Source of the DNA: Phaeospirillum sp.
GTDB lineage: Bacteria; Pseudomonadota; Alphaproteobacteria; Rhodospirillales; Magnetospirillaceae
Assembly (NCBI GenBank): GCA_030651575.1
Contig: JAUSFB010000027.1
Span: 336,897-368,896 of the forward strand
Direction: 5' to 3'
DNA length: 32,000 nucleotides
Shown here: one piece after another, positions 10,023 to 32,000 of the stretch
Layout of the letters: every line of letters begins with the position of its first letter
Position numbering within the stretch: position 1 is the first letter of the stretch
Program-made: the position numbers and the translations under genes
Notes under the pieces: generated by a model
What the model was told of the DNA's origin: nothing
The model's database searches: none
Seen by the model: the letters and a program-made list of their open reading frames with translations, nothing else

Positions 10023-10109
10023 GCCCAGGTGGCGGAATTGGTAGACGCGCACGGTTCAGGTCCGTGTGGCAGTGATGTCGTGGAAGTTCGAGTCTTCTCC
10101 TGGGCACCA
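10023..10109 (+). tRNA. tRNA-Leu (anticodon CAG), class II with long variable arm, encoded CCA
   Basis: Acceptor stem GCCCAGG/CCTGGGC. D-arm GGCGGAATTGGTAGACGC. Anticodon stem-loop CACGG-TTCAGGT-CCGTG (anticodon CAG). Long variable arm. T-arm GGAAGTTCGAGTCTTCT. 3' ACCA. Confidence 0.9.
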
Positions 10110-10809: not shown

Positions 10810-10862
10810 GTTTAGGATGCGGGCTCTGTCCGCGAAACCTTAGGCATTGGCGGGAGCATTTC

Positions 10863-13800: not shown

Positions 13801-14318
13801 GTCAACGCTGGCAGCGCGGCAGGCTGATTCATCGCCTGCTCCAGACCCTGCCCGAGTTGGAGCCGGCGGCGCGCGGCCGCGCCATGATGCGTTTTCTCAA
13901 GCGGCCCGGCTGGGGGCTGGAGACCAAGGACCAGTTGGCCATCGCCAATGAGGTCTCCGACATCATCGACCATCCTGGACTGACCGGTCTGTTTGGGCCG
14001 GCCGCCCGCGCCGAAGTGCCGCTGGTCGGACGCATCGGCGACCGCATCATATCGGGGCGGGTCGATCGGCTGGTGGTCACCGAAGCCGAGGTGCTGGTGG
14101 TGGATTACAAAACCAACCGCCGCCCGCCGCCGACGCCGGAAGAGATTCCCGACCTCTATGTGCGTCAGATGGCCGCCTATCGGCTGGCGCTGGCCTGCAT
14201 CTATCCCCGCCACCGGGTCCGCTGCGCCCTGGTCTGGACCGATGGTCCGATACTGATGGAAATCGACGCCGCCCGCCTGGACGACGCCCTGGCGGGGCTC
14301 GTGCCAGTGAGCCAATGA
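10863..14318 (+). CDS. addA: Double-strand break repair helicase-nuclease AddA (UvrD-like helicase + C-terminal PD-(D/E)xK nuclease)
   Basis: Walker A AASAGTGKTKVL. UvrD-type motifs are present (LIDEAQDTNPDQW, TVHGSKGLQAPIVFL, RLLYVAMTRA). C-terminal nuclease motif GRVDRLVV...VLVVDYKTN. 1151 aa, the usual size for alphaproteobacterial AddA. Confidence 0.9.
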   Translation: MSLSADADLRQRRAADPTASVWVAASAGTGKTKVLTDRVLTLLLAGTAPHKILCLTFTKAAAAEMANRIQRQLARWATAADAALDHDLSLLLGRPPDQREQVRARRLFAQVLDAPGGMHMETIHAFCQSLLRRFPLEAGIAPHFQVMDERDAGELLETAKLEVLGAARDGGDLARALALISNRIHETGFPDLMAELASGRGRLDRLIHRHGGVKGVGSALRARLGLEPDDTAATLLARACDEGRFDAAGLRAALPALESGAKTDQERAAAMAAWLADPADRPARFDRWRAAFLTNDGAIRKTLCTKTVRQGFPGIEEALLAEAERLVFLSDRLKAAATAEATEALLALGAALLAAYRRAKAVRALMDYDDLILAARDLLAKPGVAPWVLFKLDGGIDHVLIDEAQDTNPDQWAVLAALTEEFFAGQGARDVVRTVFAVGDAKQSIYSFQRADPREFERMRESFARHVPAAGGRWDEVALNLSFRSTAAVLDAVNAVFGPTRPGRDGIAAPDEDIIHLAHRQGHAGRVELWPPVEPRAADETPAWKPPVERIRGDSPRTRLARLMARRIERMIAAEPLESKGRPVRAGDILVLVRRRGGFVDDLVRELKSRKVEVAGADRMVLADQMAVMDLVALGNFLLLPDDDLTLATVLKGPLVGLSEDQLFTLAHGRGDAGLWETLKRRILIDPDFETAYTTLAELLAQADRLPPHALYARVLGALGGRRRLLARLGQEAEDPIDEFMALTLAFERAHPPSLQRFLHWLEASAIEIKRDLEQAGRDAVRIMTVHGSKGLQAPIVFLPDTMQVPTRGGKLLWLGDGEDEMLTWPPRADDMDAACRAGAEVRKLAGQREYRRLLYVAMTRAEDRLIVCGWRTRNTPPELCWYNLIRDGIEPLAAEVEDATLAAAAETGEARILLLTSAQTAPVSGGDAARAATAAPAALPDWARRPAGSEPAPPRPLAPSRPDGEEPPVRSPLAEADGGQRWQRGRLIHRLLQTLPELEPAARGRAMMRFLKRPGWGLETKDQLAIANEVSDIIDHPGLTGLFGPAARAEVPLVGRIGDRIISGRVDRLVVTEAEVLVVDYKTNRRPPPTPEEIPDLYVRQMAAYRLALACIYPRHRVRCALVWTDGPILMEIDAARLDDALAGLVPVSQ

Positions 14319-18625: not shown

Positions 18626-21600
18626 ATGGCGCGTCGTCTTGGGGAGGCGGACAATGTCTGCCGGGTTTTCATCAGCTCGACCTTCGAGGACCTGAAGGAA
18701 GAGCGGTCGAGATTAGCGCAGCGGGTCTTTCCCGCCCTTCGCGACCGCTTCGCCGGCGAGGGCGTCACCGTCGTCGATGTTGACCTCAGATGGGGCATCA
18801 GCGAGGAGCAATCCCGCCTCGACGGCACCCTCAACCTGTGCCTGACCGAAGTCGGCAATTGCGTTCCCTACTTCATCATCATCCTGGGCGGGCGCTACGG
18901 CTGGCGCCCGCCGATCGACCCGTTGGCGGCGGTCCGCCATCCCTGGCTGACCGCCTATCCCGACCGCTCGATCACCGAACTGGAAATCCGTTCGATCCTC
19001 GACAATATCGCGGCGGTGCGCGATTCCGGTGGTCTGGTCGGAGCGTTCTGCTATCTCAAGAATATTGAGGTGGGTGCTGCCGATGTCGATGCCGAACAGG
19101 TCCGCCTGCGCCAGGAACTGATGGATAGCGGGCTGATCGAGGCCCGAGCCTTTGCGTCGCCCGATGAGCTTGAGGCCGGGCTCCAGACCGACATGGAAGG
19201 CTTCCTGGGCGAGATGGCACAGCGGCTCAGTGCCAGCGCCACCATTCCCGAGATCGTCCGCAGCTACCACCGGACCTCCGTCGGGCAGCGGACTGCCGGG
19301 GCAGAGAATCCGGCCGAGCGAATTATCGGGCTGGAGCCCGCCGGCCATTGGGTGATCCATGCCGGCTGCGGCATGGGCAAAACAACGATCGCCTTCGAAT
19401 ACGTCCGGTCATTGCTGGCCCGGGGCTATCGCCTGCCCCCCGTCCTGACACCGACCGATCCCGCATCGGATGCGACCCGGATGGTGATCCCGGTTTTCCT
19501 GCAATATTCCAACTATGGTGGCCATACCGGGCGTATGGTCCAGGCCATCTTGGACATGCTGCCCGATTCCGGGCAACCGACCGTCCGCTCCGCAGCCGCC
19601 ACTCCCCTCTTGTTGCCGCTTCTGCTGGCCGAGCTGACCGAGCGGCTGGCCGAGAAGGTTCCCGGCGGCGGCACCATCGTGATCGACGGCATCGACGCCT
19701 GCATGGGCGACATCGTGCACGAGGACTTCGAGCAATTCATCGGTGCCCTTCCCCCCGGAATCCGCGTGGTCGTCACCATCGACAGCGCCAATCTCGATCG
19801 CCTGCTGCCACCTGGACGGCGTTCACTGGGCGAGGCGGTGACGGTCTCCGCCCTTCCCCCGCTTCCTGCCGGAAAGGCCCTGGCCGGGATCGAACGGGCG
19901 CTGGCGGTCTATGGCAAACGCCTGGACGACAGGCGGATGGCATCTCTGGCGGCGTCGCCGCTGCGCGACAATCTGCGCGGCATCGCCGAGATCGCCGATG
20001 AACTGCGCAGCCGCTCGACCTTTGCCTCCCTGGACGATGACATCGCACGCCTTGGCCGGGCGGAAACCCTGGACGAATTGCATGCGCTGCAACTGAGCGC
20101 ACGTCTTGAGGAGAGCATGCCCACCGAGGCGACCGCCTTGCGTCTGGTCATGGCGTTTCTGGCGCTGTCGCCGTCCGGGCTGGCCGAGGATCTGTTGCGG
20201 GCGGTGGTGATGGCGCAGAGCCCATCTCTGTCGTCACGCGACTGGTCGGTGGTGATGGTCGCCGTGCAACCCTTCGTGTCGCTCAAGGATGGCCGCCTGC
20301 AGCCCGCCGACCCAGATCTCCGCCGGCAGTTCGCGGCAATGGCGTTCGCAGTGCTGGATCGTGCTGCCGTTCTCGGCAGCCTGGTTGATTTCTTGTTGCA
20401 CCATCCGGCCGGGACGTGGCCGGTCTGCGAAGCGCTGCGCACCCTTCGCCATGCCGGCGAGACGGAGCGGCTTGATTCCTGTCTTGCCGACCCCAATCTG
20501 GTCATCGCCCTCGCCGGCCAGGACTGGCTTGAATTCCTCGCCTGCCTCAAGGCCGCCCTGGGCGGCCGCCCCTACTGGGAACTTGCCGCCCATCGGTATT
20601 CCGAGCGGATGTCCAATCATCCCGCCGCCCTGGCACTGCTGGCCCATGGCCTGGAAGCGGTGGCGGCGGCCCCGCCCAAGAAGGAGGACGATCTCGCCGG
20701 ATTCATGCTGACCGCCCTCGATGACGGTTACAGCGGCCTCCTGGAGGTTGCGGCCAATAACCCCCGCCTCACCGAGGGTGCCGATCTCGATGCCATCCGT
20801 CAGAGGGTCGAGCAGGGCCGGCCCGGTTTCCGCACCCTGCTGCATCTGGCCATGGTTCACTCCCCGCTCGAAGCTCTGTGCCTGTACCGCCGGGGCTCCG
20901 GAGTGGCCGTCCAATTCAGCGATCATTTCCGCACCGATCCTGCCATGGCCTGGGGCGGCATGTGCTTTATCAGCTACCGCACCATCCGCCATGAGCCATC
21001 GGGGCAGGATCTTCGCGTGCCCGATACCCTGTGGGGGGACCGCCGTCCGGCACCGATCATGTACTGGTCGACCGTCAAGGTGCTGGAGGAGGAGAGGCGC
21101 GCCGCCATCGAAGCCATGGAGGAAACGCCGATCCGGATCGCCCGCGCCAAGCTGAGGGGGGTTCTCGAACGCGGCCTGACCATCGCTATCCTGATGCAGG
21201 ATCTCGACATGGCTTCGGAGGTGATGTCCAAGGTTTTCGACGACGAGCACGGGAACCTGCCGCGGATTTACGACCATATCCGCAAGTGCAAGGTTCTGCA
21301 GCGGGCGGCTGCGGCCCTGGGGGATTTCGAGGCTCATTGCCGTTTTGTTTCCGTCCAGGCCGGAATGGCGTTGCGGTCGGGCAATCAGATCCAGTTGACC
21401 GATGCGCTCGCCGCTCTCGATCGCATCATCGCGGTGAACCGGGGTGAGGGCATCCAGCACTTCCTGCTCGGAATCCGCAACACGGTGGCCGAGGCGCTGG
21501 CTTCCGCCCTCGGCACCAGCTACCTCCCCGATGCCCGCGACTGGCGCTTCAACCATGTCCAGTTCGCCCAGCGCTGGATCAGGGGGGGCTATGCGGAGGG

Positions 21601-21829
21601 GGAGGCCCCGGCCATCGATTGGCCCCAGGTCGCCGCCCTGTTCGGAGTGCGTCCCGAAGACGAGGACTTCGACACGGAATTGGCCGAGGCTGGGAGCACC
21701 CCGATCAGCGGCGCGGCGGCATCGGCGATCAATACGCCGCCGCCAGAATCCGGTCTTGCCCTCCTGAAGGAAGCAAGCCCATTCCTGATCGTGATCGCCA
21801 CGCTGATCTACTGGTGGTGGCTATACTAG
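18626..21829 (+). CDS. STAND (NACHT-like) P-loop NTPase with N-terminal DUF4062-like domain and C-terminal hydrophobic tail anchor
   Basis: ATG 18626 lies 16 nt after the upstream stop and is preceded by GGGGGAGAGAG. The N-terminus VFISSTFEDLKEERSRLAQRVFPAL...VDLRWGISEE...ILGGRYGWRPP matches the DUF4062 pattern. Walker A HAGCGMGKTT (about 19364-19387). Walker B TIVIDGIDAC (about 19670-19699). The last roughly 20 aa are PFLIVIATLIYWWWLY-stop. Confidence 0.85.
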   Translation: MARRLGEADNVCRVFISSTFEDLKEERSRLAQRVFPALRDRFAGEGVTVVDVDLRWGISEEQSRLDGTLNLCLTEVGNCVPYFIIILGGRYGWRPPIDPLAAVRHPWLTAYPDRSITELEIRSILDNIAAVRDSGGLVGAFCYLKNIEVGAADVDAEQVRLRQELMDSGLIEARAFASPDELEAGLQTDMEGFLGEMAQRLSASATIPEIVRSYHRTSVGQRTAGAENPAERIIGLEPAGHWVIHAGCGMGKTTIAFEYVRSLLARGYRLPPVLTPTDPASDATRMVIPVFLQYSNYGGHTGRMVQAILDMLPDSGQPTVRSAAATPLLLPLLLAELTERLAEKVPGGGTIVIDGIDACMGDIVHEDFEQFIGALPPGIRVVVTIDSANLDRLLPPGRRSLGEAVTVSALPPLPAGKALAGIERALAVYGKRLDDRRMASLAASPLRDNLRGIAEIADELRSRSTFASLDDDIARLGRAETLDELHALQLSARLEESMPTEATALRLVMAFLALSPSGLAEDLLRAVVMAQSPSLSSRDWSVVMVAVQPFVSLKDGRLQPADPDLRRQFAAMAFAVLDRAAVLGSLVDFLLHHPAGTWPVCEALRTLRHAGETERLDSCLADPNLVIALAGQDWLEFLACLKAALGGRPYWELAAHRYSERMSNHPAALALLAHGLEAVAAAPPKKEDDLAGFMLTALDDGYSGLLEVAANNPRLTEGADLDAIRQRVEQGRPGFRTLLHLAMVHSPLEALCLYRRGSGVAVQFSDHFRTDPAMAWGGMCFISYRTIRHEPSGQDLRVPDTLWGDRRPAPIMYWSTVKVLEEERRAAIEAMEETPIRIARAKLRGVLERGLTIAILMQDLDMASEVMSKVFDDEHGNLPRIYDHIRKCKVLQRAAAALGDFEAHCRFVSVQAGMALRSGNQIQLTDALAALDRIIAVNRGEGIQHFLLGIRNTVAEALASALGTSYLPDARDWRFNHVQFAQRWIRGGYAEGEAPAIDWPQVAALFGVRPEDEDFDTELAEAGSTPISGAAASAINTPPPESGLALLKEASPFLIVIATLIYWWWLY

Positions 21830-22112
21830 ATATGACTTTGCGATTACCGGGGCGGGCTACGGCCTCCATCACACACAAATTGCGAAACGGCCCTCGCTAC
21901 ATCCGGCTCAACCGGCAAGATTCGAACCAACGACCGAGGTAGAGGGAAGGTATCGCTTCCGCCAGCAACTCCCCCCTTGCCGCAACCATCAACACCCTGA
22001 ATAAACGGTAGGGTGGGTATGAACACATGCACGGAAACCCCGCGCCTGAGCCCGGGGATTGGTGCATATTGGACCGAGAGACTGCGGCAGAGGAAAGCAC
22101 GTGACCGGCAAA

Positions 22113-23567
22113 ATGACAAAAGCGCGGACCAGAGTTTACGACCTTGTCCTTCCAATTTTGACCAATGCTGCATTAGGCACGGCCTGCCATTTCCTATTCC
22201 AATCCTGGATCGGCTGGACCGGCAGCGGGCGCGCCAACTATCCCGCCTGGATCGGCAACGGCATTCCTTTCCTGCAATTCATGGCGGTGGCGTTCCTGGT
22301 GGACCGAACCGTGCGCGCCGTTGGCGAAAAACTGCGCGTCGATGGCCTTTCCGGCCGGAACATGCCGAAGCTGGCCCAGCAACTGCTCTCCATCGTCATT
22401 TATTTCACCTTCCTGGGCGCATCGGTCGGCGTGATTTTCGACGAATCGGTGGGTGGAGTGCTGGCGGCCTCGGGCATTGTCGGCTTGGCGGTCGGCTTCG
22501 CGCTAAGGGGATTGCTGGCGGACGTCTTCTCGGGCATCGCCCTGCATTTGGATGCCAGTATCAACAGCGGCGACTGGATCGACGTAACCCTGCGCGGTAC
22601 GCAATTTTCCGGGCGGCTGGTCGACATTCAGTGGCGCACGGTGGTCATCGCCGACCGGTCCGAGAACTACGTCTTCATCCCCAACAGCGAATTCGCCACC
22701 GGCAGCGTGGTCAACCGCTCGCAGCCGCGGCTGGCCACGGAATACGGCACCAGCCTGCCCATTGGCAGCCAATACGACCGCGCCCGGGTGATCCAAGTGC
22801 TGGAAAACGCCCTGTCCCGCACGGTAGAGGCCAGCATCGTGCTAGCCACGCCCGCCCCCTATGTGCGCATCGGCGGGCTGGACGCCACCGGCGCCTTGAC
22901 CTATCGCCTGTTCTACTGCCTCGACCTGGACAAGATCAGCCCGGCGCGCGCCCAGCACCAAACCCTGTCCCATGCCATCGACTTCCTGAAGGCGGCCAAT
23001 ATCCGCCTTTATCCGGTGCATCACAGCGAGTACAGCCGCCCCGCCGCCTCCGGCGACAACCGCTTCACCGAAACCGACGCCCGCATGAGCGTGCTGGCCG
23101 ACGTACCGCTGCTGGCCGTACTGTCCCAGGCGGAACTGGCCGATCTGGCCCGCAATTCCGTGGTGCGCTTCCTTTCCGGCGACCAGCAGGTCATGCGCGC
23201 CGGCGAAGACGGCACCTCCATGGTGGTGGTGGTGGAAGGCCGGCTGAATATCATGGTCAACGCAACCAAGGTGGTCACGTTATGGCCGGGAGAATGCGCC
23301 GGCGAGATGTCGCTGCTGACCGGCAGCCCGCGCTCTGCCGACGTGGTCGCCGATGGCCCCACCTGCCTGCTGGAAGTCCCCAAGGCGGCGCTCAACCAAA
23401 TCCTCCAGGCAAACCCCATCCTGGTGGAACGCATCGCCGCCGCCATCGCCACACGCAAGGAAGCGGGCGGCCAGGCCTCTGGCAACGCGACCCAGACGGG
23501 CGCACGCGACGACGATGCCGGCACCCTGATCGCCAAGATGCGGAAGTTCTTCCGGATCGGGCTATGA
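22113..23567 (+). CDS. MscS-family mechanosensitive channel fused to a C-terminal cyclic-nucleotide-binding domain (bCNG-type)
   Basis: MscS core GIVGLAVGFALRGLLADVFSGIALHLD...GDWIDV...GRLVDIQWRTVVI...NYVFIPNSEF. cNMP-binding domain GEDGTSMVVVVEGRL...GECAGEMSLLTGSPRSADVVA. The start is ATG 22113 or the in-frame GTG 22101. Confidence 0.85.
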   Translation: MTKARTRVYDLVLPILTNAALGTACHFLFQSWIGWTGSGRANYPAWIGNGIPFLQFMAVAFLVDRTVRAVGEKLRVDGLSGRNMPKLAQQLLSIVIYFTFLGASVGVIFDESVGGVLAASGIVGLAVGFALRGLLADVFSGIALHLDASINSGDWIDVTLRGTQFSGRLVDIQWRTVVIADRSENYVFIPNSEFATGSVVNRSQPRLATEYGTSLPIGSQYDRARVIQVLENALSRTVEASIVLATPAPYVRIGGLDATGALTYRLFYCLDLDKISPARAQHQTLSHAIDFLKAANIRLYPVHHSEYSRPAASGDNRFTETDARMSVLADVPLLAVLSQAELADLARNSVVRFLSGDQQVMRAGEDGTSMVVVVEGRLNIMVNATKVVTLWPGECAGEMSLLTGSPRSADVVADGPTCLLEVPKAALNQILQANPILVERIAAAIATRKEAGGQASGNATQTGARDDDAGTLIAKMRKFFRIGL

Positions 23568-23703
23568 CCCGCGCTTGGCCATCCGGGGGAAAGTGACAAG
23601 CCAGGGCGCGTAAGGTTGCCGACCGGACGCGGAACGCAAACGGCCCCTCCATCTCTGCGCTAAACCTCGCCATGTCAGAGACACTCTGCCCGCCGAGCCG
23701 CTG

Positions 23704-24000
23704 ATGGCCCGGCGCGAGGATTGGGGCACCCGCCTGTCGGATACCATCGCCGTGCTGACAGCAGGCGTGGATGAGGCGAGAGAAACCCGCGCCGCCGTCC
23801 TGGTCGAGTGGAACGGCGAGCCCATGCATGTGGCGGAAAGCGGGGCTCCGGGCGGCTACGCCTTCATCTGCGACACCGGGCCGACCGGCGCGACATGGTT
23901 CTTCAGCCGCAACCAGAAGCCGAGCAATTGGGGCATCCGCGTTGCCGTTGCGCAGGTCCAGCAGCCGGATCCGCAGATCCGCGATGAGCTGTCCTGTTAG
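23704..24000 (+). CDS. Hypothetical protein (98 aa)
   Basis: The plus-frame ORF has strongly GC-rich third positions and a balanced composition. The overlapping minus-strand ORF (23392-24015) is Arg/Gly/Pro-rich, as expected for an antisense shadow. No family recognised. Confidence 0.4.
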   Translation: MARREDWGTRLSDTIAVLTAGVDEARETRAAVLVEWNGEPMHVAESGAPGGYAFICDTGPTGATWFFSRNQKPSNWGIRVAVAQVQQPDPQIRDELSC

Positions 24001-24342
24001 ATCGTCGAGCGACATCTTCCTAACACCCCTGATTGCACAAGCAGGTTACCACATGCCCCGTGCCCGGCAAGGCTTTGCCTTACGCGGAAAATGCCGATTC
24101 CGGCATTGCCGCCTGCCCTGGAAGCTCGCGCGATGACGGGAAATTTCATCAAAAAACCCTTAAGGGAAACTCTTTATCGATGCCCGATGGCGGCGCATGC
24201 TTGTCGGCATCGAGACCACAGGCGAGTAGGGTCCTGCGCCGCCTCAATCAACTGGTCAGACAAAACACATATTCTTATACATGGGCAGGCTGCAATATTG
24301 AGGATTGCGCGCTTCCAGCCGATAGAATGGACGCCAGATACA

Positions 24343-24756
24343 CTATTTTAGCATTCCGTCCTCAACATTAGGATCGTCCCACTTCGCGGCCACGGAGGCC
24401 CAGCGGTCGACCCAAGCCTGGAACTCCGGATCGTCGATCCGCATGTGGAACGTGTAGAGGCGATTGACGATCTCCTTCATCAGCTCGCGCATCTGGGCGT
24501 CATCGATGTGCGAGACCTCGGCCCACGGAATTTCCCGCCCATCGGCATCCACGACGACCACGTCGGAATAGTCCCCGGTCTTAGTGACGGGAACCAGACC
24601 GGCATGGATGTCTTCCAGCTTGGTGTTGCGCACGCACATCATGGCCATGACCTTGGCCAGCCTGGCGGCGATGCGCTCTTCGTCCTCTTTCCTCATGGCC
24701 GGATGGTAGCAGCGGGGCGGCCCACGGACCACCGCCTTCTCAACCGCAGTGACCAT
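24343..24756 (-). CDS. Hypothetical protein (about 117-145 aa depending on start)
   Basis: Protein-like ORF (…RIAARLAKVMAMMCVRNTKLEDIHAGLVPVTKTGDYSDVVVVDADGREIPWAEVSHIDD…) with GC-rich third positions throughout. Candidate starts are TTG 24780, ATG 24756 and ATG 24696; none has a strong RBS. Confidence 0.5.
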   Translation of the reverse strand: MVTAVEKAVVRGPPRCYHPAMRKEDEERIAARLAKVMAMMCVRNTKLEDIHAGLVPVTKTGDYSDVVVVDADGREIPWAEVSHIDDAQMRELMKEIVNRLYTFHMRIDDPEFQAWVDRWASVAAKWDDPNVEDGMLK

Positions 24757-24814
24757 TTCTGTCACCCGTGCGTGCGTCAATGCATGAACCGCCGCTCGAA
24801 CGGGATGAACAGAT

Positions 24815-25516
24815 ATGCATCAACCACCGCTCCGCCCCTTGGCATCGCTCTTTCTGATCGCCCTGCTGTCGGCCTGTTCGACGACGCATTTCCAAAGCGA
24901 GACGCTGGCGCGGCCTCGGGAGACGCCCGGCATTCTCTTGATGCCGCTGGATGTTGAACTGAGCGAGGTCAATGCCGGCGGCGTAGCTGAGCCGAAGGCC
25001 GACTGGACCGATCAGGCGCGCGGGAACATGACCGCGGCGCTGCGCGATATCATGGCCGGCAGGCGGGCCAATGTCGTGGTGTTCGACGACAACCGGCTGT
25101 CGCCCGAGGATGGCGCCTTGACCACGCAGTTGATGAAGCTGCACGAGGCGGTGGGCATGTCCATCCGCGCTCATAAGGTGGGCCTGTTCCCCCTACCCAC
25201 CAAGCAGGGCAAATTCGACTGGTCGCTGGGGCCTGATGTCGCCGTGTTGCGGCGCAACTTCGATGCCGATTATGCGCTGTTCGTTTTCATGCGCGACAGC
25301 TACAGCAGCGCCGGCCGGGTGATGGTGATTGCCGCCGCCGCCCTGCTGGGGGTGGGCATTCCCGGCGGCCAGCAGATCGGATTCGCCTCGCTGGTGGATC
25401 TTCGCAGCGGCGACGTGACGTGGTTCCACCTGCACGCCCGTGGGACCGGCGATCTGCGGACCACGGAGCCCGCGCGCGAAACCACCACCGCGCTGCTGGA
25501 GCAGTTCCCGAAATGA
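24815..25516 (+). CDS. Putative lipoprotein (233 aa)
   Basis: Signal peptide with lipobox: LASLFLIALLSAC|STT. The stop overlaps the next gene's start (ATGA at 25513-25516). Confidence 0.7.
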   Translation: MHQPPLRPLASLFLIALLSACSTTHFQSETLARPRETPGILLMPLDVELSEVNAGGVAEPKADWTDQARGNMTAALRDIMAGRRANVVVFDDNRLSPEDGALTTQLMKLHEAVGMSIRAHKVGLFPLPTKQGKFDWSLGPDVAVLRRNFDADYALFVFMRDSYSSAGRVMVIAAAALLGVGIPGGQQIGFASLVDLRSGDVTWFHLHARGTGDLRTTEPARETTTALLEQFPK

Positions 25517-26760
25517 GGGCGGTGACGATGGCCGCTGTCGCCCTCGCCGCCCTGGCGATGCAGGGGTGCGCAACGACGGGACAGCCCGGTGCCGGTGGAC
25601 CTTCACCTGAGGTCGCGACGGCCCCGCCGAAACCATGGGCGAAAGCCTTCGATCTCGCCGAGCAGAAGCCCGGTGTAGCGCCGTCGCGCGATACCCTGGA
25701 GGGCAGCCTGTGGATGGCCATCGAAAAGATGGAGCAGGACACCAGGACCTCCGGCACCAGGATCCAGGACAAGCAGGTCAACGACTATGTCCAGGGACTG
25801 GTCTGCAAGCTGGCCGGCGCCTATTGCCCCGACGTCCGCGTCTACGTCACCCACGTCCCCCAATTCAACGCCTTCATGACGCCGAACGGCATGATGCAGG
25901 TGTGGACGGGCCTGTTGCTGCGCACCCAGAACGAGGCGCAGCTTGCCACCGTGCTCGGCCACGAGATCGGCCATTTTCTCCAGCGCCACTCGGTCAAACG
26001 CTACGAGGACGCCATCGCCAAGACCAACCTGCTGGCCGTGTTCCAGATCGCGGCAGCGGCGGGGGGCGTGCCGGTCGCCGGAGATGCGGCAACGCTGGTC
26101 ACCATGGGGTCCATCGCCTCGTTCAGCCGCGACAATGAGCGCGAGGCCGACGACCTTGGCATGCGGTTGCTGGTGGAAAATGGCTACGACGCGCGGGAGG
26201 CTTCCAAGATCTGGGACAACCTGATCGCCGAGATGAAGGCCGACGAGGGCTCCTCGTCGCCATTGTTCTTCCTGGCTTCGCATCCGCCATCCGACGAGCG
26301 CAGCCGAACCCTAAAGACCATGGCCGGAGAGGCTCGCCTTCTCGGCAACCAAGACGAAACCGGGGCCAAGCGGTACCGCCGCGTTTTCCTTCCCCATCGG
26401 GGTGAATACCTGCGCGACGAACTGAACCAGCGCCGCTACGGCCGCTTCGACAAACTGCTCGACCAGTTGATCGAGGACGGGGCCAATGTCGGCGAACTCC
26501 TCTATTTCCGGGGTGAGCTATACCGACAGCGCGGCAAGGATGGGGACCTGCCCAAGGCGCTCGCGGCCTATGAGGCCGCCACGGCGGCCGAAGGGGCGCC
26601 GCCGGAACTCTACCGCGCCCTGGGCCTGCTGCGGCTCAAATCGGGTGACCGGCCAGCGGCCGGCGCAGCGCTGGAACGTTTCCTGGCGCTGCGGCCCGAT
26701 GCCCCCGACCGCGACATGATCCGCATGATGATCGACCAGACACGACAGGTGACGCAATGA
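25513..26760 (+). CDS. M48-family zinc metallopeptidase with C-terminal TPR-like region (lipoprotein or periplasmic)
   Basis: The ORF is trimmed to MRAVTMAAVALAALAMQGCATTG (lipobox-like AMQGC). HExxH occurs in LGHEIGHFLQRH, with a downstream E in NEREADDLG. The C-terminal TPR-like segment reads GELYRQRGKDGDLPKALAAYEAA...YRALGLLRLKSGD. Confidence 0.85.
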   Translation: MRAVTMAAVALAALAMQGCATTGQPGAGGPSPEVATAPPKPWAKAFDLAEQKPGVAPSRDTLEGSLWMAIEKMEQDTRTSGTRIQDKQVNDYVQGLVCKLAGAYCPDVRVYVTHVPQFNAFMTPNGMMQVWTGLLLRTQNEAQLATVLGHEIGHFLQRHSVKRYEDAIAKTNLLAVFQIAAAAGGVPVAGDAATLVTMGSIASFSRDNEREADDLGMRLLVENGYDAREASKIWDNLIAEMKADEGSSSPLFFLASHPPSDERSRTLKTMAGEARLLGNQDETGAKRYRRVFLPHRGEYLRDELNQRRYGRFDKLLDQLIEDGANVGELLYFRGELYRQRGKDGDLPKALAAYEAATAAEGAPPELYRALGLLRLKSGDRPAAGAALERFLALRPDAPDRDMIRMMIDQTRQVTQ

Positions 26761-27356
26761 AACACGGACTATTGGCAATGATCCTGGCGGGCGGCCTGCT
26801 GGCGGCCTGCACCAACGCGACCCTGGTCAGCGGCAATGCCCCCACCATCATCGGCAACGCCATCACGGTCATTCCGGCCATCGGCTGGAACCGGTTCGGC
26901 GAAGGCACCTCCGAAGTCTGGACCGTGGATGGGCCGATGCTGGAGCAATTGCGGTTCATGGCCGGCCTGTCGGACGGCGATACCGCGATCATCCCCTCGC
27001 CGGACAAGAACCCGACCTTCGCCACCTCGGGCCTGGACACCGACAAGGCGCCCCGCTTCCGCAAGGGCATGATCCTGCCCGAGGTGAAGGAGTTCTTCGA
27101 GGGCGTGCTGGCCTTCGCCGACGCCCAGCGCCCCAAGGTCGAGAACGTCCGCCCCGAACCCTTCGCCGGCCAGCCGGGCTTTGCCTTCGACTTCTCGTTC
27201 ACGTCGAAGAACGGGCTGGATTTCAAGGGATTCGGCCGGGGGACGATCAAGAACGACAAGCTTTACCTTGTCACCTATCATGGCACACGGCTGCGGTATT
27301 TCGACATGTACAGGAAGGATGCGGAGACGGTGATCGGGTCGGCGAGATTCCTCTGA
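26757..27356 (+). CDS. Putative lipoprotein (199 aa)
   Basis: MKHGLLAMILAGGLLAAC|TNAT lipobox. The start overlaps the M48 stop (ATGA at 26757-26760). Confidence 0.7.
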   Translation: MKHGLLAMILAGGLLAACTNATLVSGNAPTIIGNAITVIPAIGWNRFGEGTSEVWTVDGPMLEQLRFMAGLSDGDTAIIPSPDKNPTFATSGLDTDKAPRFRKGMILPEVKEFFEGVLAFADAQRPKVENVRPEPFAGQPGFAFDFSFTSKNGLDFKGFGRGTIKNDKLYLVTYHGTRLRYFDMYRKDAETVIGSARFL

Positions 27357-27644
27357 TGGTGCTGTGGTGTTGAACGCCCTCTTCTGACCCTGAACGGAAG
27401 TCGGTGGAGGGAGACTGGCGCAAGTGCCCGCTTTGCGCCCATGGCGGGCGTTGCGAGGGTCAGCGCCGGCTTCCATGAGCGGACTTTGTGGTGGATGACT
27501 GCGCCGACTGCCGTGTGCCAGGAAGAGAAGTTGGAGCGAATCGGCAATTAGATGCAGTGTCACCGCAACCCCGAACCTTTTCTAGCTAGAAGATTTAGGT
27601 TCATACTTCTCCCACGTGCCGAGGTGGTGACGGAGGAGCATTGG

Positions 27645-28610
27645 ATGGGCATGGACACAAATCAGACAATTTCGAAGATTTCTTCGATTTTCATGCCTCA
27701 CGCTTTTGAACGCTGGCAGAAACTTAACGCCGCCGGCGGGAGATTTGTCCACTATACCAGTGCTGAAAACGCTATAAAAATAATTAGCAACAAAGAATTA
27801 TGGATGCGAGATCCTCGATGCATGAATGACTATAGTGAAGTGAAACATGGATATTCTATAATTCACAACTACTTCAATGAGAGATGTCGGCTGGAGTCCT
27901 TCTCATCATTGCTAAATAATTGCGGTGACGGCATCGCAGAGCACGTATTCGCCGCCTTCAGAGGGCTTTCCACCTTAACCCAGCAGAACACGTTTATCGC
28001 TTGTTTGTCTGAACATGACGACCGCGAGAACGACCACGGACGGCTATCCATGTGGCGATCCTATGGCCGGGGCTCTGCCAGCGTGGCCATCGTACTCAAG
28101 CTGTCAACAGTCAAAGTTGCGCCATTACAGACGTTCCTCAGCCCGGTCGCTTACTTTGAGCCAGATCAGGTGGCCTTGGAAATCCAGCGGGTGGCGGCCA
28201 ACATTGAGGAAAATCGCTCCTTCCTGCAAGCCGTCGACCGGAACCTCGTTTTTTCGTCGGCCTTTATGATGCTGACGATGGCTGCCATTTCGTTAAAACA
28301 TGTCGGATTCAGAGAAGAACGAGAGTGGCGTCTTATCCATTCGCCGGTAAATTTCTCATCAGGATTTATGACGACATCCCTGGAAACCATCGGCGGAATC
28401 CCCCAATTCGTGTGCAAAATCCCACTTAAGAACATTCCTGAGGTTGGGATTTCCGGCATCTCACTCCCCGAAATATTTGACAGTCTCATCATCGGGCCAA
28501 CCGTCTATCCAGACCCAATTGCTAACGCGTTCATTCGGGCGCTGACTGACGCGGGGGTCCAAGATGCCGGCAAGCGGGTCGTCATTTCCAGGATCCCCCT
28601 GCGGACCTAA
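27645..28610 (+). CDS. DUF2971-like protein (321 aa) in an AT-rich segment
   Basis: ATG 27645 is preceded by GGAGGAG with 6-nt spacing. The N-terminus RFVHYTSAENAIKIISNKELWMRDPRCMNDYSE matches the DUF2971 pattern as I remember it (hYHYTS...IL.n.eLw.s....NDp.E). I counted 80 G+C in 27661-27860 (40%), against 66% in nearby 26901-27000. Confidence 0.65.
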   Translation: MGMDTNQTISKISSIFMPHAFERWQKLNAAGGRFVHYTSAENAIKIISNKELWMRDPRCMNDYSEVKHGYSIIHNYFNERCRLESFSSLLNNCGDGIAEHVFAAFRGLSTLTQQNTFIACLSEHDDRENDHGRLSMWRSYGRGSASVAIVLKLSTVKVAPLQTFLSPVAYFEPDQVALEIQRVAANIEENRSFLQAVDRNLVFSSAFMMLTMAAISLKHVGFREEREWRLIHSPVNFSSGFMTTSLETIGGIPQFVCKIPLKNIPEVGISGISLPEIFDSLIIGPTVYPDPIANAFIRALTDAGVQDAGKRVVISRIPLRT

Positions 28611-28769
28611 GCTAGAGCATTGACTGCTCTGACGGAATTGTAGGGGAGGCCGACGGCATCGTCCATTTTACTGCCCCCGTCTACCAAACCTGCCAGTCCG
28701 CTCCCGGCCCAAAAGGGCCACCCAGGATGGTATGTCGGCGGACGACATCGGGTGCAGAACCAGCAGCAA

Positions 28770-29828
28770 TCACGGCAGCGCCGCCCACCTCATCCGATTG
28801 CCGTTGACCATCTCCGCCAGCCGGGCCGGTTCCAGCACTTCGACCTTGTCGCCCCAGGTATAGAGGTGCCAGGCCATCTCCAGATCGCTGCCGGCGGTGA
28901 AACGCACGATCAGCGAGCCGTCCGCGTCCCGCTCCATGGTCTGGCTTGGGTGAAAGACGAATTCGGCGGCATCTTCGGCGGCCTCGGGGGCGAAGCGCCA
29001 GACCACCGGGTATGGTTCCTCCTGGAACAGGCCGAAGGATTGGGCGGCAAAGGATTGCAGGTTGAAACCGGGATCGCGGACAAAAGTTTCGTCCAGGATC
29101 TCGACCGCCTCGATATTGGGCAGGCTGAACAGCGCCACCAGATTGGCCTTGGGGTTCTCATGCCAGCCCACCAGATAGTTGCGATGGCCGTGCAGGAAGC
29201 CGTAAGGATGAACCAGACGGTCGTTGATTTTCCGGGTCCGGCGGTTGCGATAGCGGATGCGCACCTTGCGGCATGCCTTCATGGCATCGCGAAGCTCCTC
29301 GACCACCGACACGTTGATGCGCGGGCGCGGGCCGGGGCGCATGGCCAAACCCTCGGCCTCCAACATGGCTTCCAGGTCCGGTTCCACCTTGCGGGCGATA
29401 TCGGGCTTCATGAGCGCCCGCACCTTGCCTGACACAGTGGTCAGGTTGGCGGCCTCGTCCTCGCGGTTGTCGCGGTCAAGAAGACGGATGGCCGCGTCCA
29501 GCGCCGCCAGTTCATCGGCGGTGAAGGCGATCAGGCGATCCAGGGTGCCGGACGGAATTCGCCAGCGCTTGGTCCGCTCATCGGTTTCCACCTCCTCGCA
29601 CTGAGAGAAATTTCGCAGGACCGCATCGCGCATGCGCATAGCGGTGCGCCGACCGACTTCGAATTTGGCCTCGATATCCTTCAGCGACAAGCCGCCGCGC
29701 GCCGCCTGCATCTCCAGCGCCAATTGCAGCAGGTTGTCGGCTTTCTCGTAGCGCACCGCCGCCCCCAGTCCATGAAACGTGTCCAATTCTGACACGGACA
29801 GGCCGTCAAATGAAGTGGGCACGATCAA
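28770..29828 (-). CDS. WYL-domain transcriptional regulator (N-terminal HTH + WYL + C-terminal extension; BrxR/CapW-like)
   Basis: HTH region LLQLALEMQAARGGLSLKDIEAKFEVGRRTAMRMRDAV. WYL region RIRYRNRRTRKINDRLVHPYGFLHGHRNYLVGWHE. The start is uncertain (TTG 29828 or GTG 29822). It is convergent with the DUF2971 gene and lies 12 nt from the divergent ORF at 29841. Confidence 0.85.
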   Translation of the reverse strand: MIVPTSFDGLSVSELDTFHGLGAAVRYEKADNLLQLALEMQAARGGLSLKDIEAKFEVGRRTAMRMRDAVLRNFSQCEEVETDERTKRWRIPSGTLDRLIAFTADELAALDAAIRLLDRDNREDEAANLTTVSGKVRALMKPDIARKVEPDLEAMLEAEGLAMRPGPRPRINVSVVEELRDAMKACRKVRIRYRNRRTRKINDRLVHPYGFLHGHRNYLVGWHENPKANLVALFSLPNIEAVEILDETFVRDPGFNLQSFAAQSFGLFQEEPYPVVWRFAPEAAEDAAEFVFHPSQTMERDADGSLIVRFTAGSDLEMAWHLYTWGDKVEVLEPARLAEMVNGNRMRWAALP

Positions 29829-29840
29829 CCGGCGGCTGCG

Positions 29841-30056
29841 ATGCGGATCTGTGGGGCTTTGGCACTGTCGTTATTGATCATGCCACCCGCCTGGGCCGGC
29901 GATGCCCAGGTGTGCTTCACGCCGGGCGAAGACTGCACCGGCATGCTTGTGACTGAGCTCGCCACCGCCCGGCGCGAGGTCCTGGTTCAGGCCTATGGCT
30001 TCACCAATCCCGCCATAGCCCAGGCGCTGTCCGACGCCCGTCGCCGCCAGGTCACG
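29841..30056 (+). pseudogene. 5' fragment of a secreted PLD-family (Nuc-like) nuclease/phospholipase D gene
   Basis: A signal peptide (MRICGALALSLLIMPPAWAG) is followed by VCFTPGEDCTGMLVTELATARREVLVQAYGFTNPAIAQALSDARRR. This resembles the N-terminal third of Nuc-type PLD proteins. Similarity stops before any HKD motif, and downstream in-frame residues look like out-of-frame junk. Confidence 0.55.
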
Positions 30057-30060
30057 ATAT

Positions 30061-30225
30061 GTGGAACTGGAGGCTCGCCTGGCCCGAACCATTCATTTGG
30101 CGTTCGGGCTGCCGGCTCTGTTGCCGCAGGAATGGCGAGAGATGATCGACCGCGCCGACAGGCTTGCCGCCTTCATCGAGGCTATTCATCTCGCTGGCTT
30201 TACAGAAGCCGAGGCCAGAGGCACT
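30061..30225 (+). pseudogene. Internal fragment of an HD-domain phosphohydrolase-like gene (different frame)
   Basis: The frame-1 ORF begins ELEARLARTIHLAFGLPALLPQEWREMIDRADRLAAFIEAIHLAGFTEAEA. This resembles the C-terminal part of a conserved alphaproteobacterial HD hydrolase family (from memory). There is no N-terminal HD motif, and the ORF tail is the out-of-frame reading of the BrxL-like region. Confidence 0.4.
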
Positions 30226-30230
30226 GGGCA

Positions 30231-32000
30231 TCCCTTGAGAACTTCGCCTCTCAGCGCATTGCCATCGGCGAGAAGTTCTATCGGGACAACGATCGCCTGT
30301 TGGAGGGCGGGATCTGGGCGGAAGTCGTGATCGCCCACAATGACATCGATCAGGACGCCTATGCGTTCTACGTCGAGGACCTGCGGCCGGTCCAGCTCAG
30401 CCGCTTCGACTTTGCCACCTACGGCGAGGCCAAGAAGGCGTTCACTCGTGACGAGTGGATGGACGTGGTGCTCCGCTCGGTGGGCCTGGAGCCGGGTAAG
30501 CTGTCCAAGCGAGTAAAGCTGCACTTCATCGCCAGACTGGCCCCCCTGGTGGAACCCAACTTCAACTTCATCGAGCTTGGCCCACGTGGCACGGGCAAGT
30601 CCTACTTCTTCTCCGAGTTCTCCCCCTACTCCACGCTCATCAGTGGCGGACAGGCTACCAAGTCGGTGCTGTTTTACAACAATGCGCGCCACAAGATCGG
30701 CTTGGTCGGGTTCTGGGACACGGTGGCGTTCGACGAAGTCGGCGGCATCAAGGTCAAGGATCCGGACACGATCCAGATCATGAAGGACTACATGGCCAAT
30801 GGCCGCTTTTCACGCGGTGCGGAGGTGATCGCCGACGCCAGCATGGCGTTCGTCGGCAACATCGACATGTCCGTCGAGCAGATCGTCAACTCGACGGAAT
30901 ACGATCTTTTTCAGCCGCTCCCCGAGCAGTTTGACCTGGCGGTTATGGACCGTTTCGCTTGCTACCTGCCGGGCTGGGAGATGCCCAAGAACAGCAGCGC
31001 GTTCCTAACCGAGCGATTCGGTCTCATCACCGACTTTTTGGCTGAAGCCTTCCACCACCAGCTCAAGCACAGCAACCGTTACGAGGAAGTCAGCAAGCGG
31101 CTGAAGTTGGGCTCGACCGTCGAGGGCCGCGACGAGAAGGGCATCAAGAAGACCCTTTGCGCCATGCTTAAGATCCTGCATCCCGCCGATTCCCCGACGA
31201 ACGAGGAGTTTGACGAATACGCGGCCTACGCCGTCGAATGCCGACGCAGGGTCAAGGAGCAGATGAACAAGCGGAAGCCGGACGACGAGTTTGCCCGGAT
31301 CGACCTCTCCTTCTTCGACAAAGACGGAATAGAGTTTGTCGTTCGCTGCCCCGAGAGCGTCGGCGCATCCGCCACGCTCGAACCCGCACGTCGTCGTCTG
31401 CGGAGCAAGGACGGAGAGCCAGATGCCACCGCCCCCTCGGCTGCTACGCCCAAGCCGGTCGAGGCGTTCTCTCCCCCGCCGTTAGATGTCCCTGCTCCCG
31501 CTGAAACGAGGGCCCTGACCGAGCAGCATTACACTATCGCCTACGGGGATACGGGCTATTCCTACGACACGATCTTCGGCCCTTACCTGTTCGGGGCGAA
31601 GGCGGTCCTCGTCGAGGATCCCTACATCCGCATGCCACATCAGATCGCCAACTTCGTCCGCTTCTGCGAAACCGTCGTGAAGGTGGCTGCCACGGTCAGG
31701 ACCATCACTCTGGTCACATCCTACGACGAGCAGACGGATATGGCCGGCCTCCACGACAAGCTGGGCGAACTCAAGCAGAGCCTGCTGGAGTACGACGTGA
31801 CGCTGGAGATCGAATTGAACGACAAACTCCATGACCGCGAGGTTCGTCTCGACAACGGCTGGACCATCAAAATCGGACGCGGACTCGACTTCTACCAGAA
31901 GCCCGAGGGCTGGTATGCGGTCGGAGCGACCGACCTCGGCCTCAGACGCTGCCTGGAGACCAAGGTGGACGTCTTCCGCGCCCCATCAGTGAAGGTGTGA
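30231..32000 (+). CDS. BrxL-type AAA+ ATPase fused to a C-terminal MIT_C (MITD1-like PLD-fold) domain; lacks the BrxL N-terminal ~105 aa and any Lon-like domain
   Basis: Similarity to BrxL starts near [30 protein letters not shown]. Walker A [11 protein letters not shown] (30579-30602). Walker B VAFDEVGG (30723-30746). [10 protein letters not shown] and PGWEMP are also present. A Pro/Ala-rich linker leads to the C-terminal [17 protein letters not shown]...[29 protein letters not shown]...CLETKVDVF. The only uninterrupted upstream start is ATG 29841, which reads through the fragments; an in-frame GTG lies at 30327. The TGA stop is at the window end. Confidence 0.7.
   Translation, partial: [589 protein letters not shown]

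What the first reader, a model, noticed from the sequence alone, without database searches (positions are those of the whole stretch)
28770..32000. WYL (BrxR/CapW-like) regulator next to a BrxL-type AAA+ ATPase whose Lon-like domain is replaced by a MITD1-type PLD-fold domain
WYL-HTH regulators are established companions of phage-defence loci: BrxR with BREX and CapW with CBASS. BrxL is the AAA+/Lon-like component of type I BREX. Here a BrxL-type ATPase core has intact Walker A (GPRGTGKS) and Walker B (FDEVGG) motifs. It is followed by a Pro/Ala-rich linker and about 160 aa strikingly similar to the C-terminal PLD-fold domain of eukaryotic MITD1. Compare [29 protein letters not shown] with my recollection of human MITD1, ...[23 protein letters not shown].... 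The segment HDREVRLD (31830-31853) reads as an HxRxxxxD variant of the PLD HxKxxxxD motif. No brxA/B/C, pglX or pglZ is visible upstream, so this would be a stand-alone ATPase-PLD module under WYL control rather than canonical BREX. Caveats: the gene ends exactly at the window edge, so downstream partners are unseen, and this copy lacks the BrxL N-terminal domain (see the separate mosaic finding).
Basis: partly seen in the sequence, partly recalled or inferred. Interest (0 to 1): 0.7.

Follow-up and report, generated by a model that had tools for sequence, protein, structure and literature searches.

The report
Broken BREX brxL remnant beside DriD-like regulator
The ATPase and MITD1-like domains are real, but this BrxL type is already known as the last gene of ordinary BREX phage-defence operons, and the copy here is a 5'-truncated leftover fused by deletions to the wreck of an unrelated operon that the neighbouring WYL regulator normally controls.

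Summary
Observation confirmed. ORF 29841-32000 carries a BrxL AAA+ ATPase (Pfam E 1.7e-120) and a C-terminal MIT_C PLD-fold domain (E 5.6e-52). That domain is 46% identical to human MITD1.

Interpretation not supported.
- BrxL_N + ATPase + MIT_C is a very common BrxL form. A PADLOC BrxL model covers it end to end, NCBI names it BrxL, and a 2025 paper mentions it.
- In 78 of 80 related genome loci PglZ lies upstream of it. The other two contigs have no upstream DNA.
- The window has no BREX partner genes.

The window ORF is a three-part chimera:
- 219 nt from the 5' end of a Nuc-like PLD gene;
- 162 nt from inside a YfbR-like HD gene, read out of frame;
- brxL from codon 108 onward.

A 96-97% identical contig (L082) carries the intact operon: WYL gene, then divergently PLD-p80-p126-YfbR.

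The WYL protein is a full-length homologue of Caulobacter DriD (E 5e-59), not of BrxR or CapW. Its conserved partners are p80 and the YfbR-like gene, never BREX. The 158 nt beyond the window show no BREX genes.

Verdict: an ordinary decayed locus.

The parts
28770..29756 (-). Intact gene for a DriD-like WYL transcription regulator (wHTH, WYL, WCX). It is 328 aa from the GTG at 29756; the mechanical ORF extends to the TTG at 29828.
   Evidence: Pfam WYL (E 3.4e-11) and WCX (E 1e-14). Full-length match to C. crescentus DriD, PDB 8TP8 (E 5.2e-59, aa 22-341 vs 18-333). Orthologues are 328 aa and start at V/M-RYEKADNLL. 97.6% identical to the L082 protein.
29778..29796 (.). Palindrome CGTGTC-N7-GACACG in the 84-nt divergent intergenic region. 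It is a candidate operator of the DriD-like regulator.
   Evidence: one match in the window, 0.11 expected by chance with up to one mismatch allowed. Related GTGACC...GGTCAC-type palindromes lie 20-45 nt upstream of the start codon in most orthologues examined, including L086, L092, L093 and L094. Binding is inferred, not tested.
29841..30059 (+). 5' fragment (codons 1-73) of a Nuc-like PLD gene. It includes a signal-peptide-like N-terminus and lacks the HKD motif. It supplies the ATG of the chimeric ORF.
   Evidence: Window 28722-30059 is 96.4% identical to L082 3121-1784. The intact L082 gene is 184 aa with Pfam PLDc_2. The junction is shown base by base. The signal peptide is judged by eye only.
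30058..30219 (+). Internal fragment of a YfbR-like HD phosphohydrolase gene (its codons 106-159). Within the chimeric ORF it is read out of its native frame.
   Evidence: 97.5% identical to L082 530-369. tblastn gives YfbR aa 106-159 at 98%. About 1.25 kb of L082 (rest of PLD, p80, p126, 5' half of yfbR) is missing between this fragment and the previous one.
30217..32000 (+). brxL from codon 108 to the stop: tail of BrxL_N, AAA+ ATPase (30366-31301), Pro/Ala linker, and MIT_C PLD-fold domain (31554-31979).
   Evidence: 96% identical to P0001 (700 aa) from its residue 108. Pfam, PADLOC and NCBIfam hits. PDB 8EMC and 4A5Z matches. Junction with 2-3 nt of microhomology.

Best explanation
The region is a decayed locus, not a defence module.

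What is intact:
- A DriD-type WYL regulator gene (28770-29756, minus strand).
- Its divergent promoter/operator region.

By homology with Caulobacter DriD, this regulator would bind single-stranded DNA produced on DNA damage and act at a palindromic site (inferred).

What it normally sits next to:
- In a 96-97% identical relative (L082) the divergent operon is Nuc-like PLD, p80, p126 and YfbR-like HD hydrolase.
- In more distant relatives the conserved partners are p80 and the YfbR-like gene.

What happened in the window (shown by sequence comparison):
- One deletion of about 1.25 kb joined PLD codon 73 to yfbR codon 106.
- A second illegitimate-recombination junction joined yfbR codon 159 to brxL codon 108.

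The second event most likely removed the rest of a type 1 BREX operon (brxA to pglZ) lying downstream, but the ancestral arrangement is inferred, not observed.

By chance the three pieces form one 719-aa open frame. It starts with a secretion-signal-like peptide and lacks about 107 residues of the BrxL N-terminal domain. In the solved Acinetobacter BrxL that domain helps build the ring and contacts DNA. The product, if made, is therefore probably non-functional.

The brxL part belongs to the common MIT_C-type BrxL. In intact genomes that protein works as the last gene of BREX. There the MIT_C domain occupies the place of the Lon-like C-terminal domain, which mediates tail-to-tail ring pairing in the solved BrxL. 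Whether MIT_C plays that structural role or is an enzyme is unknown.
For: Chimera mapped at nucleotide level:
- Window 28722-30059 equals L082 3121-1784 at 96.4%.
- Window 30058-30219 equals L082 530-369 at 97.5%.
- BrxL homology to P0001 and P0003 begins at their residue 108.
- PADLOC BrxL model PDLC02508 is matched only from profile position 98 of 698.
- Intact L082 genes: PLDc_2 184 aa, 80 aa, 126 aa, YfbR-like 213 aa, divergent from the WYL gene.

Canonical context of the BrxL type:
- L001 of Microvirga splendida reads BrxB-BrxC-PglX-PglZ-BrxL(MIT_C).
- 78/80 genome loci have PglZ upstream, and in 70 it is full length and directly abutting.
- PglX fragments are present in 59-68 loci and BrxC in 44, within the 10-kb flank.
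- All 120 top homologues are about 700 aa with BrxL_N + BrxL_ATPase + MIT_C.
- The window has no BREX partner genes.

The WYL protein:
- DriD match E 5e-59 over the full length.
- No BrxR or CapW chains at E<=0.01.
- No Pfam WHD_BrxR or BrxR_CTD.
- BLASTP against a Pfam-defined BrxR (L089) gives E>1.
- WYL + p80 + YfbR-like are conserved together in L082, L092, L093 and L094.
- None of the eight distinct WYL neighbourhoods examined places it next to BrxL.

Role of the missing N-terminal domain: PMC10164562.

Chance of an open frame: out-of-frame stop density here is only about 1 per 50 codons, so an open chimeric frame is unsurprising, roughly 0.1.

Independent occurrence: the exact chimeric ORF recurs in a Logan assembly contig (L091, 100% identical over 12,160 nt).
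Against: - The brxL part has no frameshift or internal stop over 593 codons, and the whole fusion is an open frame behind an apparently intact regulated promoter. Expression and some residual or new function cannot be excluded.
- No contig shows the presumed ancestor with yfbR followed by a full BREX operon. The brxL fragment could have arrived from elsewhere.
- L091 may come from the same organism or dataset as the window, so it is not proof of independent occurrence.
- The rest of the source genome is unseen. An intact BREX could exist elsewhere.
Confidence: 0.85

Rival explanations
1. One reading: a functional stand-alone defence module in which a WYL (BrxR/CapW-like) repressor controls an N-terminally remodelled BrxL ATPase with a PLD-fold effector domain. 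It would act without the other BREX proteins.
For: Walker A and B are intact and the MIT_C domain is complete with the conserved EDPY..HQ, HDRE and KIGRGLD motifs. The frame is open. A divergent WYL gene with a palindrome sits in the shared intergenic region.
Against: - All close homologues are full-length and sit behind pglZ in BREX operons.
- The N-terminal 126 aa of the ORF are demonstrably scraps of two unrelated genes, one read out of frame.
- The WYL protein is DriD-type, with other conserved partners.
- No second lineage with this arrangement was found. The metagenome scan for junction 2 gave 0 hits, and the only other occurrence is a 100% identical contig.
- All type 1 BREX genes studied are reported to be needed for restriction (PMC10164562).
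Confidence: 0.04
2. The truncated BrxL is retained because it still cooperates with, or modulates, an intact BREX system encoded elsewhere in the same genome. One example would be a spare or dominant-negative subunit induced by DNA damage.
For: The ATPase and C-terminal domains are undamaged and 96% identical to an intact relative. The rest of the genome is unseen.
Against: - There is no evidence that any other BREX genes exist in this genome.
- The fusion begins with a secretion-signal-like peptide (by eye).
- It lacks most of the N-terminal domain used for ring assembly and DNA contact in the solved BrxL.
Confidence: 0.06
3. The chimera is an assembly artefact that joins reads from different loci or organisms.
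For: The window ends exactly at the stop codon. The only other occurrence is a short-read Logan contig that ends 158 nt later. The pieces have their best matches in different metagenomes.
Against: - The junctions share only 2-3 nt, far less than the k-mer overlap that assembler mis-joins need.
- GC content is uniform at about 0.60-0.63 across the junctions.
- The same sequence appears in the Logan assembly at 100% identity over 12 kb.
Confidence: 0.04

Closest known systems
MIT_C-type BrxL of type 1 BREX (PADLOC model PDLC02508; NCBI 'BREX system Lon protease-like protein BrxL', e.g. Microvirga splendida, Acidocella sp. C78)
   Same: ATPase, linker and MIT_C domain are 85-97% identical to these proteins. 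The PADLOC profile is matched from position 98 to 695 of 698. The ORF scores above the curated cutoff of NCBIfam TIGR02688 (385 vs 329 bits).
   Different: The first 107 residues are missing and replaced by unrelated sequence. The gene is not preceded by pglZ or any other BREX gene.
Acinetobacter BrxL (PDB 8EMC/8EMH; Shen et al. 2023, PMC10164562)
   Same: Homologous from residue 105 to 486: tail of the N-terminal domain plus the AAA+ ATPase, with Walker B Glu conserved.
   Different: The C-terminal Lon/RadA-like domain (aa 498-679), which pairs the two rings, is replaced by MIT_C. The match to NCBIfam TIGR02653 covers only profile positions 97-485 of 675 and scores 416 bits, below the 628 cutoff.
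Human MITD1 C-terminal PLD-fold domain (PDB 4A5Z, 2YMB; Pfam MIT_C PF16565)
   Same: 46% identity over 144 residues, E 1.4e-39. The shared motifs [24 protein letters not shown] and LR.C.ET are >=98% conserved in 82 bacterial BrxL C-termini.
   Different: There is no MIT domain. Here the domain is fused to an AAA+ ATPase in a bacterial defence protein. MITD1 is described as a membrane-binding ESCRT-III partner (paper title cited; the paper itself was not held).
Caulobacter crescentus DriD (WYL activator of an SOS-independent DNA-damage response; PDB 8TP8)
   Same: The window's WYL protein aligns over its full length (E 5.2e-59). It has the same WYL and WCX domains and a palindrome upstream of its own gene.
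   Different: The target genes differ. Here they are a PLD/p80/YfbR-like operon in mobile-element or damage-response neighbourhoods. ssDNA binding and activation are untested.
BrxR / CapW WYL repressors of BREX and CBASS
   Same: General wHTH-WYL-C-terminal-dimerisation layout and occurrence in defence or mobile regions.
   Different: No detectable sequence similarity: no PDB hit at E<=0.01, BLASTP E>1 against a Pfam-defined BrxR, and no Pfam WHD_BrxR or BrxR_CTD. The DriD literature describes a different linker and dimerisation architecture. The gene is not found next to an intact BREX operon.

Membership tests
BrxL (type 1 BREX) | BrxL-type AAA+ ATPase domain with Walker A and B | tested here: met
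   Pfam BrxL_ATPase E 1.7e-120, profile positions 1-310 of 313. GPRGTGKS and FDEVGG are present. Aligns to 8EMC residues 105-486.
BrxL (type 1 BREX) | BrxL N-terminal domain | tested here: not met
   Only Pfam BrxL_N positions 91-130 of 132 are matched, at 25 bits against a 28.2 cutoff. Homology to full-length relatives starts at their residue 108. Residues 1-126 of the ORF derive from PLD and yfbR fragments.
BrxL (type 1 BREX) | C-terminal domain of a recognised BrxL subtype | tested here: met
   The MIT_C subtype is met: PADLOC PDLC02508 is matched through profile position 695 of 698. The Lon-like subtype (TIGR02653) is not met: matched only to position 485 of 675 and below its cutoff.
BrxL (type 1 BREX) | Last gene of a brxA-brxB-brxC-pglX-pglZ-brxL operon | tested here: not met
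   No BREX partner anywhere in the 32-kb window or in the 158 nt beyond it. The feature is met in 78/80 homologous loci.
BrxR/CapW-type WYL repressors | Sequence or profile similarity to BrxR or CapW (Pfam WHD_BrxR, BrxR_CTD; solved BrxR and CapW structures) | tested here: not met
   Pfam gives only WYL and WCX. The PDB search at E<=0.01 returns DriD-type and PafC chains only. BLASTP against the BrxR of L089 gives E 1.3.
BrxR/CapW-type WYL repressors | Placed at the head of an intact BREX or CBASS operon | tested here: not met
   The window has only a brxL remnant. Orthologues sit next to PLD/YfbR, SNase, HIRAN or AAA genes.
DriD-type WYL activators | Full-length homology to C. crescentus DriD (wHTH, three-helix bundle, WYL, WCX) | tested here: met
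   PDB 8TP8 E 5.2e-59, query aa 22-341 vs chain aa 18-333. 8TP8 is confirmed as DriD in PMC10853764.
DriD-type WYL activators | Binds a palindromic operator; activated by ssDNA | tested here: inconclusive
   A palindrome lies at 29778-29796, and related palindromes lie upstream of orthologues. No binding or ssDNA data are available, and the effector-contact residues were not examined.
PLD superfamily (HKD enzymes) | Canonical HxKx4D catalytic motif | tested here: not met
   The motif reads HDREVRLD, i.e. HxRx4D with Arg in place of Lys. The family is Pfam MIT_C. Whether it is catalytic is an open hypothesis in PMC12065111.

The most novel reading that the evidence does not exclude
The deletions may have placed a still-active BrxL ATPase-MIT_C fragment under a DNA-damage-responsive DriD-type promoter, and the fragment is retained as an exapted stand-alone effector. 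A broader form of this reading is that the MIT_C domain, with its invariant EDPY..HQ and HDRE motifs, is a real phosphodiesterase and is the missing restriction activity of this large BREX clade.
Probability: 0.04. Interest if true: 0.6.

Novelty: already known. Interest (0 to 1): 0.15.

Why it matters
For this window it matters mainly as a caution. A tidy-looking "regulator + ATPase-nuclease" pair turns out to be debris from two deletions, and automated annotation would still call the ORF BrxL, because it passes the NCBIfam TIGR02688 cutoff.

At the family level, the MIT_C-type BrxL is abundant and experimentally untouched.
- The way BREX stops phage is still unknown.
- A PLD-fold domain with invariant His/Arg/Glu motifs, 46% identical to human MITD1, replaces the ring-pairing Lon-like domain of the solved BrxL.
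- That question deserves experiments, but on an intact operon (e.g. Microvirga or Acidocella), not on this remnant.
- It has already been raised in print (PMC12065111).

Tried and rejected
- Looked for BREX partners in the window with Pfam on 18 large ORFs and tblastn with Microvirga BrxC, PglX and PglZ. None found.
- Searched plasmids by megablast with 28600-32000. The only hit was one 77% brxL match on a Thioflavicoccus plasmid, which was not informative.
- Scanned JGI metagenome contigs for the exact junction-2 26-mer. 0 hits.
- Tried to read the contigs of the 97% identical BrxL (P0001). Gene tables only, no DNA. Its upstream gene overlaps brxL by 11 nt, as pglZ does in L001, but this could not be verified.
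- P0124 was not on record.
- The MITD1 structure paper (PMC3491508) is not held. Statements about MITD1 biochemistry therefore rest on its title as cited and on my own knowledge.
- The exact palindrome CGTGTC-N7-GACACG is not conserved outside the same lineage. Only a looser related palindrome is shared.
- The 158-nt tail beyond the window has no similarity to any held locus. ARAGORN finds no tRNA in it, so the tRNA-end idea is only a guess from 'TGGTTGCGGG' plus a minus-strand terminator hairpin.
- Considered BrxR identity for the WYL protein and rejected it.
- Did not run structure prediction or fold search. The direct sequence matches to solved structures made them unnecessary.


Full report
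**What is in the sequence**

The region holds two large ORFs.
- ORF 29841..32000 (+) is 719 aa. Its TGA stop is the last codon of the window.
- ORF 28770..29828 (-) runs divergently from it.

Pfam on the plus-strand ORF gives three hits.
- BrxL_ATPase: aa 176-487, E 1.7e-120.
- MIT_C: aa 572-713, E 5.6e-52, covering the whole profile.
- BrxL_N: a sub-threshold match to the last 40 positions only.

Comparison with solved structures agrees.
- The C-terminal 151 aa hit human MITD1 (4A5Z, 2YMB) at E 1.4e-39, with 46% identity over 144 residues.
- The ATPase part hits Acinetobacter BrxL (8EMC) at residues 105-486. That protein's Lon-like C-terminal domain is unmatched.

**The architecture is not new and not stand-alone**

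The architecture is already catalogued.
- PADLOC holds a BrxL model (PDLC02508). It matches this ORF from profile position 98 to 695 of 698, including the MIT_C part, at E 5e-227.
- NCBIfam TIGR02688 ("BREX system Lon protease-like protein BrxL") is passed above its cutoff.
- A protein search returned more than 7,900 relatives. All 120 best have the MIT_C and ATPase domains, and 119 also have BrxL_N. Most are about 700 aa, and NCBI names many of them BrxL.

The genomic context of relatives is canonical BREX.
- In Microvirga splendida the gene closes a BrxB-BrxC-PglX-PglZ-BrxL operon.
- I fetched 80 genome loci with 10-kb flanks.
- PglZ lies upstream in 78 of them. In 70 it is full length and directly abutting.
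- The two exceptions are contigs that start at or inside brxL.
- PglX and BrxC follow wherever the flank reaches.

The literature already records the architecture. [quoted passage not shown] It was the only relevant paper found.

**The window copy is a chimera**

BLASTP against the 97% identical relative P0001 (700 aa) shows that homology starts at P0001 residue 108, which is ORF residue 127. The preceding 126 residues come from two other genes. The contig L082 (Logan, SRR28552074) shows the intact state. There the WYL gene is divergent from a four-gene operon:
- a Nuc-like PLD (184 aa, PLDc_2);
- an 80-aa protein (p80);
- a 126-aa repeat protein (p126);
- a YfbR-like HD hydrolase (213 aa).

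The window matches L082 in two blocks.

| Window | L082 | Identity | Content |
|---|---|---|---|
| 28722-30059 | 3121-1784 | 96.4% | WYL gene and first 219 nt of the PLD gene |
| 30058-30219 | 530-369 | 97.5% | yfbR codons 106-159 |

- About 1.25 kb is missing between the two blocks.
- At about 30217-30220 the yfbR piece joins brxL codon 108.
- Both junctions share only 2-3 nt of microhomology. That fits illegitimate recombination and argues against an assembler mis-join.
- The yfbR piece is read out of its own frame.
- Out-of-frame stops occur only about once per 50 codons in this GC-rich DNA. An uninterrupted fusion frame therefore has a chance probability of roughly 0.1.
- The PLD piece contributes a secretion-signal-like N-terminus (MRICGALALSLLIMPPAWAG, judged by eye) and lacks its HKD motif.

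In the solved Acinetobacter BrxL, the N-terminal domain (aa 1-146) helps form the ring and contacts DNA, and the C-terminal domains pair the two rings (PMC10164562). A protein lacking about 105 of those residues and carrying an export signal is unlikely to work.

**The WYL regulator**

Identity:
- Orthologues are 328 aa and begin V/M-RYEKADNLL. The real start is therefore the GTG at 29756.
- The best solved relatives are C. crescentus DriD chains (8TP8, E 5.2e-59 over the full length; 7TZV and 7U02 for the C-terminal part). No BrxR or CapW chain appears at E<=0.01.
- Pfam finds WYL and WCX, but not the BrxR-specific WHD_BrxR or BrxR_CTD families. Those families do mark a real BrxR in L089.
- BLASTP between the window protein and that L089 BrxR finds nothing, E>1.
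- The DriD papers describe DriD as an ssDNA-activated activator with a linker and dimerisation mode different from those of the BrxR/CapW repressors.

Neighbourhoods of orthologues vary:
- PLD-p80-p126-YfbR in L082;
- SNase in L086;
- HIRAN in L083;
- AAA in L089;
- p80 plus YfbR-like in L092 and L094, and in L093, where the p80-like ORF lies on the far side of the WYL gene.

WYL, a p80-like small protein and the YfbR-like gene recur together. At least 11 WYL hits and YfbR hits report the same longest-contig length, which is indirect evidence of co-location. These neighbourhoods contain integrases, ParB/RepB, UmuD-like and Y-family polymerase genes, and McrBC. None places the regulator at the head of BREX.

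A palindrome, CGTGTC-N7-GACACG (29778-29796), lies in the 84-nt divergent intergenic region. Looser related palindromes sit 20-45 nt upstream of the start codon in most orthologues examined. This suggests a DriD-type operator, but it is untested.

**Beyond the window**

The exact 719-aa ORF is on record in a Logan contig (L091, SRR13727527). That contig is 100% identical to window 19841-32000 and extends 158 nt further. The extension holds:
- a 42-aa ORF starting 4 nt after the brxL stop;
- a terminator-like hairpin on the minus strand;
- the string TGGTTGCGGG at the contig end, which could be the 3' end of a minus-strand tRNA (a guess; ARAGORN finds nothing).

It contains no BREX genes. In P0001's contigs a 165-aa gene also starts 4 nt after brxL, but no DNA was available for comparison.

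**Most likely history and function**

*Shown:*
- an intact DriD-like regulator gene with its intergenic region;
- fragments of its target operon;
- a 5'-truncated brxL.

*Inferred:*
- An ancestor carried the WYL/PLD-p80-p126-YfbR module. A type 1 BREX operon probably lay downstream in the same orientation.
- One deletion collapsed the module.
- Another deletion removed everything from mid-yfbR to brxL codon 107, including brxA to pglZ.
- The regulator may still respond to DNA damage, but its divergent promoter now drives a junk fusion.

I give this reading 0.85. The rivals each get about 0.04-0.06: a functional stand-alone module, cooperation with a BREX system elsewhere in the genome, and assembly artefact.

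**Novelty and score**

The BrxL-MIT_C architecture is already in Pfam-annotated databases, PADLOC, NCBI naming and one paper. The WYL protein belongs to a characterised class. The local arrangement is gene decay. Interest is low (0.15).

The question worth pursuing concerns the family, not this window. It is whether the MIT_C domain of this large BrxL clade is catalytic or is a ring-pairing substitute for the Lon-like domain. It is best pursued on an intact operon.

Noticed in passing
window 27552-28610 (+); Logan gene call 27822-28610: A DUF2971 gene (Pfam E 7e-8) sits in a patch of GC 0.50, against about 0.65 around it. It is convergent with the WYL gene and gives only a weak PADLOC hit to candidate PDC-S31 (E 0.001). 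Homology to L082 stops 48 nt past the WYL stop, so this is another variable-cargo breakpoint. The gene was probably acquired horizontally.
   Followed up: partly
window 16771-18609 (+) and 18626-21829 (+): An adjacent gene pair. One is a 612-aa protein with TrkA_N and RyR domains. The other is a 1067-aa protein with an N-terminal DUF4062 and no other Pfam hit. Neither has a PADLOC match. They may be an uncharacterised two-gene module.
   Followed up: partly
window 10863-14318 (+); tRNA-Leu at 10023-10109: An 1151-aa UvrD-type helicase with a C-terminal PD-(D/E)XK nuclease (AddA/RecB-like). The PADLOC GajB and DRT hits reflect the generic helicase domain only. A tRNA-Leu(CAG) gene lies just upstream.
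   Followed up: no
L082 204-2002; L092 8754-10699; L093 7110-10618; L094 8584-10642: A conserved module of a DriD-like WYL regulator, a small p80-like protein and a YfbR-like HD phosphohydrolase occurs in Magnetospirillum-like genomes and metagenomes. It sometimes carries an inserted secreted Nuc-like PLD and a 126-aa repeat protein. It is usually embedded among integrase, ParB/RepB, UmuD/Y-family polymerase, SRAP or McrBC genes. It may be a mobile-element DNA-damage-responsive unit, and its function is unknown.
   Followed up: partly
L089 1-12 (BrxB), 8001-8987 (DriD-like WYL), 10860-11717 (BrxR by Pfam): One metagenome contig carries both a DriD-like WYL gene and a true BrxR (WHD_BrxR + WYL + BrxR_CTD), within about 11 kb of a BrxB gene and an IS21 element. 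The two WYL classes can therefore co-reside in one defence island without being interchangeable.
   Followed up: no
window 31554-31979 vs human MITD1 (PDB 4A5Z): Identity is 46% between a bacterial BrxL C-terminus and a human ESCRT-III-associated protein domain. Several motifs are conserved in >=98% of 82 bacterial sequences and are identical in human. This level of conservation suggests either horizontal transfer between bacteria and eukaryotes or very strong constraint.
   Followed up: partly
L091 12161-12318 (= 158 nt beyond window position 32000): A 42-aa ORF starts 4 nt after the brxL stop. It is followed by a 12-bp-stem hairpin with a T-run on the minus strand. The contig then ends in TGGTTGCGGG, which could be the 3' end of a minus-strand tRNA gene and hence an island boundary.
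   Followed up: partly
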